In this document: positions 14,701 to 17,700 of the stretch, in pieces
Position numbering within the stretch: position 1 is the stretch's first letter
How the letters are laid out: each line of letters opens with the position of its first letter
Assembly (NCBI RefSeq): GCF_053078305.1
Contig: NZ_CP166879.1
DNA: 64,000 nucleotides
Strand: one strand, 5' to 3'
Program-made: the position numbers

Positions 14701-17700
14701 AAAATGAGCGAGATGTATGATGGCCGTTTTTCGCGTGAAGCATTTCTTAACTTGTCCGTGGCGGCAGACTCTGTAAACAGGGCCGCAATCGAGTTCGTAT
14801 TTATGAAAAGCACGGTCGATTCCGGCATTATTTATTGCACTGTATTCCGTATCACTGAAGAAAGGTGGAAATACGATGTATCCTTCCATTGTCAGCGCCA
14901 GAACGCGCGGATCGGTTTCTGTCAGCCATTCGTTTTCTGTGAATTCTTCAGAATTAATTTCAATGATTTCAGGTTCTTCTTTCATGGTTACTCCGTGTTC
15001 ATCCGGTGTTAATTACTTTTATTCACTCTGAGCGCAGCCAGAAGATGTGGCTCAGCAATTCGTTTGTTGCGATATATCTGTGATACAGCCTGGCCTTTTC
15101 AGGTTGTAAAAATCCCCGACAATAAAGCTGTAAATTAATTACTGTTCTTAAATAATGTTATTCGTTTTCAGTCCGGCACAGATGCTTTTCTGCTTTGTCT
15201 GCTGTACAGGATAATGAGCGGAAAAGACAATTCATCATGTTTAGCGCATCTGGTGAACCAATATCACCGCTGTCAATAATCACCTGTAACAAAGACAGGC
15301 TTTCTGTTATCTCGCAGTGGACATTATCGAGTACTTCAACGCAATTATTCATTTTTCATTATCTCCGTTATTCCGGGGGAGGAGCTATGCTGTTAATGAT
15401 TAACGCATCTGGTAATATGCCCCTCTTTAATGTAATCGATGCATTCATTCAAAAGTTCATCAATGATTAACTTTCCTGATTCAGTCAGATACTCACCATG
15501 TTGGTTGATACCGACAGCATCCTGGTATGCAGTGCGTATTGCTGTTTCACCATCTTTCCGCCCAAACTCACCACGGGTAACGCCTTCAAATCGTAATAGC
15601 AACTGGTTTATGAACTGTTCTGTTATTTCAATAGTTGTTAACTCTCCATCATGACGCTTTACAGTGAGGAGATTACTTCCTGTTTTTCGTTTCATCCGCC
15701 GCAGTGCTGCAACCGTTATGCGGCGACGATATGCAGAAATGTATTTATCTTTCATTTGTTATTTCCCGTATGCCTTTTTGAGAAACAATACTGCAACTGA
15801 CCAGTATCCGGCATCAGCCATTAATAAAGCGGTTTTATAGGCATGTTTGTCTTTCATGTGTCATCCCCATTTTTAAATAGTGAGAATTCACGACCGCAGA
15901 CCGTCATGTTTTTATGTATGATTGTCTGTTTAATTTCCTTTATTCGTTCTCAGAGCATCAACATACTCGTAAGCCTTTTCACAGGTTTTATTCATGGAAC
16001 GAATCAGACAAAGTAAGAAATCATCTGTCTCTCCGTTATCACCAGAGTTTTTAAATATAAACTCAAGCATTGACGTGTTTTCTTTTATTTCTGCTGCCAC
16101 TTCCTCAAGCATAATCAGGGGAGTTTTCATGTTCTTTGTTCCTTAAATGCATCGCATGCGCTTCTGGCGTATTGTTGTGCCAGTAAAAAGATGTCATCCG
16201 AAAGTTCATCACATTCTTCATCACCGGAAGCCGAAATGATTAACCCCGCTTCAAGCAGTACTGCAATGTGATGAAAAGCTGTTTCCGGTTCGTTGGTGAG
16301 GCCTTTGAACATTTTCATCTTACGATTCCTTTGTAGTGTCAGAATGGAAACCTGTAAGTAACCACATCGGATCGCAGTCAAGTATATTTGCCAGAGGAAT
16401 CACCTGGCTTGCCAGAGGTTCAGCCTTGCCGTTCTCCCACTGGATGATGGTTTCTTCATCAACTCCAAGCAGCGTGGCGAGTTCAGCGGTGGATAGACCG
16501 CAGCTTTCGCGTTGGGTGCGGATCTCATGGGGGCAATCAGAAATGTTTTGTTTATGAATTAACAAAGATAATGTGTGAGATACTTTGTTTATTATATCCC
16601 ACGCCATTCCGGCGCATGACTCGATATCATTGGCAAGAGTTGTATCTGGCGCTGCTTTTGCGATAAGAGCAATGAGGGAGCCAAGATTTTTTAAATCTTC
16701 AATGCATGATAGCGTAGTTTTTTGGAACATATTAATGATACCTCAGTTACTTTTTTAGTATGGTAACTAAAGTATCATTCATGGGCAAGCGTTTTTTGAT
16801 ACTAAAGTATCTTTCTTAGAAAATATCCCATCGGGCATCCACGATCACGCCGACGATTTCACAATCATCATCTATTTCAATGATGGGATACTGAGGATTG
16901 AGTGGTTTCAGGAAAGATCTTCCCATTTCAGTCACATATTTTTTGAATGTTGCTTCGTTGGTTGATTTTTTTCTTGCGATAACGTAACAGCCTGAATGTA
17001 CAGCTTTGTCTGGGTTTACGAGAATAGACATACCCTCAGGAAAGGTGATTCCAACAGGCGAGGTCATTGAATCACCATGTACTTCAAGCCAAAAACCTCT
17101 TTCACCTGCATATTTGACAGAATGTCTCCAGTTATCATGGTCATACATGCTGTAATCATCTCCAGCAGTAGAGAATAGTCCGGCCTGGACCCAGTTAATA
17201 ACGGGATAGGAATGAAATGCGTCTTTTTGAGGACAACTCTTAACATTGTTTTCCCAGTTTACAGATTGTTCTTCTCCATTTTGTAGCCATTGTGGAGTGC
17301 AGTTTAGGGCTGTGGCTACCTTGAATAAAGTATCTCCGTTGAAGCTTTTAGTAAGTCCTTGCTCTGCTTTGCTTATAGCCACGCGGGTTATACCGGCTTT
17401 TTTTGCTAATGCATCTTGTGTCAATCCTGCCCGTTGCCTGGCGCTGCTAAGGCGCTCTCCCAAAGTTCTCATTTTATCTCTCCTGTTTTTTCGGTCGATA
17501 CTAAAGTAGCACATATTCTTGATACTTTAGATTCATTTGTTGTACATTTATGGACGCTAAAGTATCAATCAGTGAGTGAGAGATGACTCTTTACGAAATT
17601 TTAAAAGCTGAGTTTAAAACCAATGCTGCAATTGGTCGCCGTTTCCCTAAGAGAGGAAAACCTAGAGGTAGTCAGGGCGTTGGAAAGTGGAAAACCCGAG

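What the first reader, a model, noticed from the sequence alone, without database searches (positions are those of the whole stretch)
15158..16318. Tandem trio of diverged paralogous small acidic proteins in the leftward early operon
ORFs 15158..15352, 15930..16130 and 16127..16318 (about 63-66 aa each) share a recognisable pattern (hydrophobic/acidic helix, SGD.GE.D, C..EKA) despite low identity, indicating ancient tandem duplication and divergence. Small acidic early proteins in the pL operon of lambdoid phages are frequently host-takeover or anti-defence factors; a diversified array suggests selection to target variable host partners.
Basis: inference. Interest (0 to 1): 0.35.

Follow-up and report, generated by a model that had tools for sequence, protein, structure and literature searches.

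The report
Small helical-hairpin proteins in prophage early operon
Three real, conserved genes for small acidic proteins lie in the repressor-controlled early operon of an E. coli prophage, but only two are demonstrable paralogues; the third is the free-standing form of a domain that sibling prophages fuse to the neighbouring DNA-binding regulator.

Summary
The three minus-strand ORFs exist, have ribosome-binding sites, are annotated as CDS in RefSeq and are under purifying selection. A (15158..15352) and B (15930..16130) are true paralogues: BLASTP E=6e-9, and both match phrog_6882. C (16127..16318) is not detectably related to them. Its pairwise score is at shuffle level, hhalign on deep profiles gives E 0.07-0.13 (probability <1%), and it belongs to phrog_4587. 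The shared "SGD" loop is not conserved within either family.

AlphaFold2 predicts an alpha-helical hairpin for both B and C (pLDDT about 94). That is the same simple architecture, not evidence of common descent.

Three operators between the cI-like repressor and the first gene match three in oR, so a cI-repressed leftward operon is supported.

The C domain also occurs as the N-terminal domain of Xre-type HTH regulators. These include the orthologue of the adjacent gene 16320..16730 in sibling prophages. It also forms the C-terminus of 121-aa proteins.

My best guess, which is inferred and untested, is that C acts as a domain-only competitor of that regulator domain, with B translationally coupled as a partner. 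No data support a host-takeover or anti-defence role, and selection is purifying, not diversifying. Interest is modest.

The parts
16127..16318 (-). C: 63-aa acidic protein of phrog_4587, predicted N-terminal beta-turn plus helical hairpin (H11-29, H34-62). It is the free-standing form of a domain that is also found fused to HTH_3 regulators.
15930..16130 (-). B: 66-aa acidic protein of phrog_6882, predicted helical hairpin (H4-28, H33-65). Its start codon overlaps the C stop codon (ATGA).
15158..15352 (-). A: 64-aa acidic diverged paralogue of B (38% identity, phrog_6882), with 5 Cys.
16320..16730 (-). First gene of the operon: a 136-aa Xre-type regulator with HTH_3 at residues 70-124. Its N-terminal ~65 aa is of the phiP27 L10 type. 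Sibling prophages carry a C-family domain at the same position. Its stop codon lies 1 nt before the C start codon.
15759..15857 (-). 32-aa basic ORF, conserved as a ~35-aa peptide (..AYKTA...RKAYG.) directly after the B-family gene in relatives. Not annotated by PGAP.
15393..15755 (-). 120-aa basic protein (phrog_1737, function unknown) lying between B and A. Conserved in relatives.
16737..16811 (.). oL: three operator copies at 16811-16798 (GATACTTTAGTATC), 16776-16763 and 16750-16737. A weak candidate pL, TTGCCC (16788-16783) - 17 nt - TACCAT (16765-16760), is read by eye and is below the scan threshold.
16816..17472 (-). cI-like LexA-family (HTH_3 + Peptidase_S24) repressor, using the PGAP start codon.
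17497..17566 (.). oR: three copies of the same operator at 17566-17553, 17534-17521 and 17510-17497, between cI and the rightward cro-like gene (17583..17792).

Best explanation
The region encodes two separate families of ~65-aa acidic alpha-helical-hairpin proteins. They sit in the cI-repressed leftward early operon of a phiP27/phi467-like lambdoid prophage inserted next to rcsB.

Shown:
- A and B are paralogues of one family, which is widespread in enterobacterial prophages.
- C belongs to another family.
- Both families are predicted with high confidence to be two-helix hairpins, and both are under purifying selection.
- HTH regulator, C and B are tightly packed. There is a 1-nt gap between the regulator and C, and an ATGA overlap between C and B.
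- The C domain is modular. It occurs free, as the N-terminal domain of Xre-type regulators carrying 1-3 HTH_3 domains (the first pL gene), and as the C-terminal domain of 121-aa proteins (the second pL gene).

Inferred mechanism:
- A two-helix hairpin whose first helix is about 60% hydrophobic cannot be a stable monomer. These proteins therefore probably work by helix-bundle association.
- C most likely acts as a domain-only competitor of the regulator's N-terminal hairpin domain. It could co-assemble with that domain, as SinI does with SinR. Alternatively it could compete for a constant third partner, as lambda CIII acts as a decoy for FtsH. Either route would tune early regulation and the lysis-lysogeny decision.
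- B, and its paralogue A, is probably a partner hairpin made in fixed ratio with C.
For: Operon position:
- Operators lie in both oL and oR.
- The gene order cI -> [HTH] -> C -> B is repeated in phi467, SaltyDalty, EKP1 and L007-L009.

Fold:
- AlphaFold2 gives pLDDT 94.4 for C and 93.6 for B, both helix-loop-helix.
- Helix 1 of C is hydrophobic at 11 of 19 positions.

Modularity of the C domain:
- The exhaustive profile search finds free forms and HTH-fused forms at E down to 1e-15.
- Pfam HTH_3 is confirmed in all 10 fusions tested.
- The phi467 gp44 N-terminus matches the C profile with hhalign probability 95%, E 2.4e-8.
- The ASU11 gp51 C-terminus matches with probability 95%.
- Sibling prophages with a near-identical HTH half carry C-family N-domains.

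Real genes:
- dN/dS is 0.05 or below for C, 0.10-0.15 for B, and A shows 10 synonymous against 5 nonsynonymous codon changes.

Coupling:
- The overlapping or abutting stop and start codons are conserved in phi467, EKP1 and L007-L008.

SinI/SinR precedent:
- SinI binds SinR through residues conserved between the two proteins and abolishes its DNA binding (abstract of PMC3163267, shown).
Against: - No interaction has been tested or modelled. No complex was predicted, and both structure-prediction jobs went on monomers.
- In this window the regulator's N-domain is not detectably of the C family (hhalign E 0.02-0.2).
- The identical C protein sits beside four different regulator N-domain types. 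Several relatives have free C and no HTH gene at all: EKP1, SaltyDalty and L008. Both facts argue against a specific C:N-domain heterodimer and favour a constant third-party target.
- The A/B family is never seen fused to a DNA-binding domain, so its link to regulation rests only on adjacency.
- Not all relatives carry both families: ASU11, L010 and L011 lack A/B, and the Klebsiella phage lacks C.
- A helical hairpin is a generic fold. Foldseek found only non-specific matches, with E >0.8.
Confidence: 0.35

Rival explanations
1. Host-directed early accessory proteins. Each small acidic hairpin would bind and inhibit a host protein such as a defence system, protease or division protein, in the way lambda Kil, CIII, Gam or Ral do. 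The HTH fusions would be an unrelated reuse of the domain.
For: - The genes are in the pL operon and repressed by cI.
- They are acidic and small.
- The operon is a mosaic of many different ~60-75-aa hairpin-like ORFs whose copy number varies between relatives.
- The identical C protein sits beside varying phage neighbours, which fits an invariant host target.
Against: - There is no similarity to any known anti-defence or host-takeover protein. Pfam, NCBIfam, PADLOC and PDB sequence searches found nothing meaningful for A, B or C (no hits beyond chance level).
- Selection is purifying rather than diversifying.
- The repeated fusion of the C domain to regulators in the same operon slot would be left unexplained.
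Confidence: 0.3
2. All three proteins, and perhaps the regulator N-domains and the other hairpin ORFs of the operon, descend from one ancestral hairpin gene. Repeated duplication would have been followed by divergence beyond sequence recognition.
For: - Size, charge and predicted helix-loop-helix geometry are the same, with the loop at residues 29-33 in both B and C.
- The genes are adjacent.
- The hhalign global alignment is collinear over 56 columns.
- Duplication is demonstrably active in this operon: A/B in the window, two B copies in L008, and two C copies in EKP1 and L007.
Against: - No statistical support at any level. Pairwise scores are at shuffle level. Profile-profile E is 0.07-0.13. 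The exhaustive search gives no cross-hits. No intermediate family links the two.
- The signature residues of the two families do not correspond.
- A two-helix hairpin arises easily by convergence.
Confidence: 0.15
3. The ORFs are chance reading frames or decaying remnants with no function.
For: They are short, carry no known domain and are annotated only as hypothetical proteins.
Against: - Synonymous changes are in excess in all three.
- There are hundreds of homologues across Enterobacteriaceae.
- Structure predictions are confident.
- All have Shine-Dalgarno sequences and the stop/start coupling is conserved.
Confidence: 0.02

Closest known systems
SinI / SinR of Bacillus subtilis (and SlrA / SlrR)
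   Same: An Xre-type HTH_3 regulator carries a small helical oligomerisation domain. A neighbouring gene encodes a ~60-aa protein homologous to that domain alone. In SinI/SinR the small protein forms a heterodimer that abolishes DNA binding (PMC3163267 abstract). Here the C domain is free in gene C and fused to HTH_3 regulators in the adjacent slot of sibling prophages.
   Different: - There is no sequence match to Pfam SinI.
- The domain is N-terminal to the HTH here, whereas it is C-terminal in SinR.
- The regulators may carry 2-3 HTH domains in one chain.
- In this window the regulator's N-domain is of another sequence type.
- The same C protein accompanies four N-domain types.
- The interaction is untested.
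Lambda CIII (pL-operon inhibitor of FtsH that protects CII)
   Same: Both are small helical proteins encoded in the leftward early operon. Lambda CIII acts as a competing substrate or inhibitor for a constant host partner and so modulates an early regulator (own knowledge of lambda biology). A constant host partner would explain why C is invariant.
   Different: There is no match to any Pfam family, including Lambda_CIII. C is a two-helix hairpin with a conserved N-terminal FKGL motif. No link to a protease is shown.
Rop (ColE1) and other helical-hairpin proteins that dimerise into four-helix bundles
   Same: A ~63-aa helix-loop-helix is predicted with high confidence. Rop variants are among the Foldseek matches (TM 0.60-0.64).
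   Different: The matches are not significant (E>4). There is no sequence similarity, and an RNA-binding role is not indicated.
PHROG families phrog_6882 / phrog_27579 (A, B) and phrog_4587 (C)
   Same: Full-length HMM matches at E 1e-31 to 5e-38, so the proteins are members of already catalogued phage protein families.
   Different: Both families are labelled 'unknown function'. The link between the C domain and HTH regulators, and the split between the A/B and C families, are not recorded in that catalogue.

Membership tests
   BLASTP E=6e-9. 0 of 2000 shuffles reach the observed score. Both match phrog_6882.
   BLASTP E=0.33 or no alignment. Shuffle p=0.5-0.6. hhalign E 0.07-0.13, probability <1%. 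No cross-hits by HMM.
   B and C are both predicted as helix-loop-helix. The fold is too simple to discriminate homology from convergence. A was not modelled, and the B and C models could not be superposed with the tools.
phrog_6882 (unknown function) | Full-length HMM match | tested here: met
   A matches at 8.6e-31 and B at 4.5e-38.
phrog_4587 (unknown function) | Full-length HMM match | tested here: met
   C matches at 1.6e-33.
SinI/SinR-type antagonist pair | The small protein is homologous to a non-DNA-binding domain of an adjacent Xre-type HTH regulator | tested here: inconclusive
   Met in sibling prophages: phi467 gp44 at probability 95%, and the regulators of L013, L014 and L018. Not met for the regulator in this window.
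SinI/SinR-type antagonist pair | Sequence membership of Pfam SinI | tested here: not met
   No Pfam family matches C at E<=1.
SinI/SinR-type antagonist pair | A heteromer forms and blocks DNA binding | not testable with these tools
   This needs multimer modelling or biochemistry. Both structure-prediction jobs went on monomers.
Lambda CIII-like protease decoy | Sequence membership (Pfam Lambda_CIII) | tested here: not met
   No Pfam hit.
Lambda CIII-like protease decoy | Encoded in the repressor-controlled leftward early operon | tested here: met
   oL operators lie immediately upstream of the HTH-C-B genes.
Lambda CIII-like protease decoy | Inhibits FtsH or stabilises an early regulator | not testable with these tools
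   No computation bears on this.
Known defence-system components (PADLOC) | HMM match | tested here: not met
   No hit for A, B or C. The regulator gives only generic HTH hits.

The most novel reading that the evidence does not exclude
The early operon of these prophages may use a set of interchangeable helical-hairpin modules as a protein-level specificity layer. The first pL regulator would swap its N-terminal hairpin like a cassette, among the L10 type and at least three C-family types. Free hairpins (C, B, A and other hairpin-like ORFs) would act as competitors or partners that set the regulator's activity or stability. This would be a second, previously unrecognised regulatory or immunity-like determinant beside cI/Cro.
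Probability: 0.15. Interest if true: 0.55.

Novelty: new variant of a known kind. Interest (0 to 1): 0.3.

Why it matters
If C really competes with the hairpin domain of the first pL regulator, lambdoid prophages of the phiP27/phi467 group would have a SinI/SinR-like antagonist circuit inside the early operon. It would give a handle on how N-less lambdoid phages tune early expression. It would also assign a role to two widespread families of unknown function, found in hundreds of Escherichia, Klebsiella, Enterobacter and Citrobacter prophages. If the proteins instead hit a host target, the invariant C protein is a good candidate for a pull-down. Either way, the practical result here is a correction: the "trio" is a pair plus an unrelated neighbour.

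Tried and rejected
- Profile searches of viral contigs (search for related loci with A1 and A2) failed because the alignments have no conserved stretch.
- Foldseek of both models against the PDB, and of C against BFVD, gave only generic hairpins with E>0.8. afdb50 was unavailable.
- PDB sequence searches with both profiles found nothing meaningful.
- Pfam, NCBIfam and PADLOC gave nothing meaningful for A, B or C.
- Rfam found no RNA element that could explain the DNA-level conservation of gene C.
- The consensus promoter and terminator scan found nothing above shuffle expectation. The pL hexamers I give are read by eye and are weak.
- I tried to link the A/B family, the C family, the L10-type regulator N-domain, the W-family and three singleton hairpin ORFs by all-against-all hhalign. 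No pair reached significance.
- Literature searches by protein accession and by phiP27 gene names found nothing.
- I considered and rejected a strict SinI-like specific pairing of C with the regulator N-domain as the only model. The identical C protein accompanies four N-domain types and also occurs without any HTH gene.

Full report
**What is there.**
The window carries a lambdoid prophage inserted beside rcsB. A 99% identical copy is annotated in E. coli DETEC-S792. Its relatives are phage phi467 and a set of enterobacterial prophages.

On the minus strand the gene order is:
- a cI-like LexA-family repressor (16816..17472)
- a 136-aa Xre-type HTH protein (16320..16730)
- C (16127..16318, 63 aa)
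- B (15930..16130, 66 aa)
- a 32-aa ORF (15759..15857)
- a 120-aa protein (15393..15755)
- A (15158..15352, 64 aa)

Each of A, B and C has an AGGA/GGAG motif 8-10 nt before its ATG. The regulator's stop codon lies 1 nt before the C start. The C stop overlaps the B start as ATGA.

**Is it an early leftward operon?**
The 85-bp gap between cI and the HTH gene holds three copies of a 14-bp near-palindrome (GATACTTTAGTATC and variants) at 16811-16798, 16776-16763 and 16750-16737. Three more copies lie between cI and the rightward cro-like gene. This is the oL/oR layout of a lambdoid immunity region. The HTH-C-B...A genes are therefore very probably transcribed from a cI-repressed pL. The promoter hexamers themselves are weak: TTGCCC-17-TACCAT is read by eye, and the consensus scan found nothing above background.

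**Are the three ORFs real genes?**
Yes.
- Compared with four diverged relatives, C shows 14 synonymous changes against 1 nonsynonymous change.
- B has dN/dS 0.10-0.15.
- Against a diverged orthologue, A shows 10 synonymous and 5 nonsynonymous codon changes.
- All three are acidic, with pI 4.45-4.64.

**Are they a paralogous trio?**
Only A and B are.
- BLASTP for A against B gives E=6e-9 at 38% identity.
- The local alignment score is 79, against 23 +/- 4.4 for shuffled sequences.
- Both match phrog_6882 over their full length.

C does not join them.
- It belongs to phrog_4587.
- C against B gives E=0.33, and C against A gives no alignment.
- Both scores sit at the shuffle mean.

I deepened both families to check this.
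- A profile search found more than 160 A/B-family proteins in Escherichia, Klebsiella, Enterobacter, Citrobacter, Raoultella and Trabulsiella.
- An exhaustive HMM scan of 1.84 billion representatives found 52 C-family clusters and no A/B member.
- Profile-profile comparison of the deep alignments gives E 0.07-0.13 and probability below 1%.
- HMM-to-sequence cross searches are empty.

In an A orthologue the loop reads SGG.

**Structure.**
AlphaFold2 with these alignments gives confident models.
- C: pLDDT 94.4, a short N-terminal beta-turn, then helices 11-29 and 34-62.
- B: pLDDT 93.6, helices 4-28 and 33-65.

B and C therefore share a two-helix hairpin architecture with the loop at the same place. 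This fold is too simple to establish common descent. Foldseek returns only generic hairpins (Rop variants, designed hairpins, terminase oligomerisation hairpins) at E>0.8.

Helix 1 of C is hydrophobic at 11 of 19 positions. For a 63-aa hairpin this implies burial in an oligomer or a complex. That step is an inference.

**What the C family is.**
This is the one informative lead. C-family hits include free ~63-aa proteins. They also include proteins of 136-347 aa in which the domain is N-terminal and is followed by one to three HTH_3 domains. Pfam confirmed HTH_3 in all ten fusions tested.
- The N-terminus of phi467 gp44, the orthologue of the window's HTH gene, matches the C profile with probability 95%, E 2.4e-8.
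- The C-terminus of the 121-aa ASU11 gp51 / phiP27 L08 proteins matches as well.

Eight sibling regulators were lined up. They share a nearly identical HTH half, but the N-terminal ~65 residues differ like a swapped cassette.
- Four carry the phiP27 L10 type: the window, L016, N47 and phiP27.
- Four carry one of three different C-family variants: phi467 and L018, L013, and CFIA.

The L10-type domain is not detectably related to C or to A/B.

**Context in relatives.**
The order cI -> [regulator] -> C-domain gene(s) -> B-family gene(s) -> ~35-aa peptide -> further small ORFs recurs. Copy number varies.
- EKP1 and L007 have two C genes.
- L008 has two B-family genes.
- ASU11 and L010 have no A/B gene.
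- The Klebsiella phage has no C gene.
- In L016-L018 an 88-aa C homologue is combined with A and no B.

B-family proteins are often extended by a ~70-aa second domain, which in EKP1 is a separate ORF.

**Mechanism.**
The best-supported reading is that these are protein-protein interaction hairpins. C would be a domain-only competitor of the regulator's N-terminal hairpin domain. B would be translationally coupled to it as a partner.

The closest analogue is SinI/SinR, in which a small protein homologous to the regulator's helical oligomerisation domain forms a heterodimer that abolishes DNA binding (PMC3163267 abstract).

Important counter-evidence:
- The identical C protein (WP_000781553.1) sits beside all four regulator N-domain types.
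- It also occurs where no HTH gene exists.

A specific C:N-domain pairing is therefore doubtful. A constant third partner, which the free domain and the fused domain would both bind (a lambda CIII-like decoy logic), fits at least as well. I give the competitor model 0.35, a purely host-directed role 0.3, and cryptic common ancestry of all the hairpins 0.15. The last is not exclusive of the other two. Nothing here tests an anti-defence function. Selection is purifying, not diversifying.

**Known or new.**
Both families already exist as PHROGs of unknown function. RefSeq calls the proteins hypothetical. No paper in the library mentions them. Three points appear to be new but modest:
- the separation of C from A/B
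- the link between the C domain and HTH regulators
- the swapping of the regulator's N-domain

All three remain untested experimentally.

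Noticed in passing
window 16530-16730 (N-terminal half of the HTH gene); L002, L012-L016, L018: The N-terminal ~65 aa of the first pL regulator is exchanged like a cassette among otherwise near-identical prophages. There is an L10 type and three C-family variants, while the HTH half stays 75-100% conserved.
   Followed up: partly
window 16127-16318 versus flanks: Gene C is an island of 97-99% DNA identity (dS 0.03-0.14) between segments that are only 53-84% identical (dS about 1-2). This suggests recent recombinational spread of this module, or some extra constraint. No Rfam element was found there.
   Followed up: partly
window 15759-15857 (minus strand): A 32-aa basic ORF (MKDKHAYKTALL...KKAYGK) is conserved as a ~35-aa peptide directly after the B-family gene in SaltyDalty, a Klebsiella phage, L008, L009 and L011. 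It is not annotated by PGAP in the 99% identical RefSeq copy.
   Followed up: partly
L006 (phage EKP1) 3709-3715; proteins P0026, P0036, P0099 and others: A C7 homopolymer lies at the junction between the B-like ORF and the next 74-aa ORF. Database 'long' B-family proteins are either in-frame two-domain fusions or read-throughs into a third frame with odd R/F/M-rich tails. Possible explanations are slippage, phase variation or sequencing error.
   Followed up: partly
L003 4304-4507, L008 4189-4416 and 5212-5424, L009 5673-5882, L010 5592-5968: Relatives carry further 60-75-aa ORFs in the same operon that look like helical hairpins. These are a 'W-family' ending in W..EE..RR and several singletons. 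None is significantly linked to A/B or C by hhalign.
   Followed up: partly
L006 (OM284015.1): The record named 'Elizabethkingia phage EKP1' carries an immunity region and early operon of enterobacterial lambdoid type. Its C- and B-family genes are 40-54% identical to the E. coli ones. The host assignment looks questionable.
   Followed up: no
window about 23276-27360 (L001 17855-19901): The prophage carries type I restriction-modification genes (HsdM methyltransferase and the S subunit) and a frameshifted hok/gef gene downstream of the Q antiterminator, according to the RefSeq annotation of the 99% identical copy.
   Followed up: no
window 15158-15352: Paralogue A has 5 cysteines in 64 residues, against 2 in B. 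In L016-L018 it is the only A/B-family gene, combined with an 88-aa C homologue. A may therefore substitute for B rather than add to it.
   Followed up: partly
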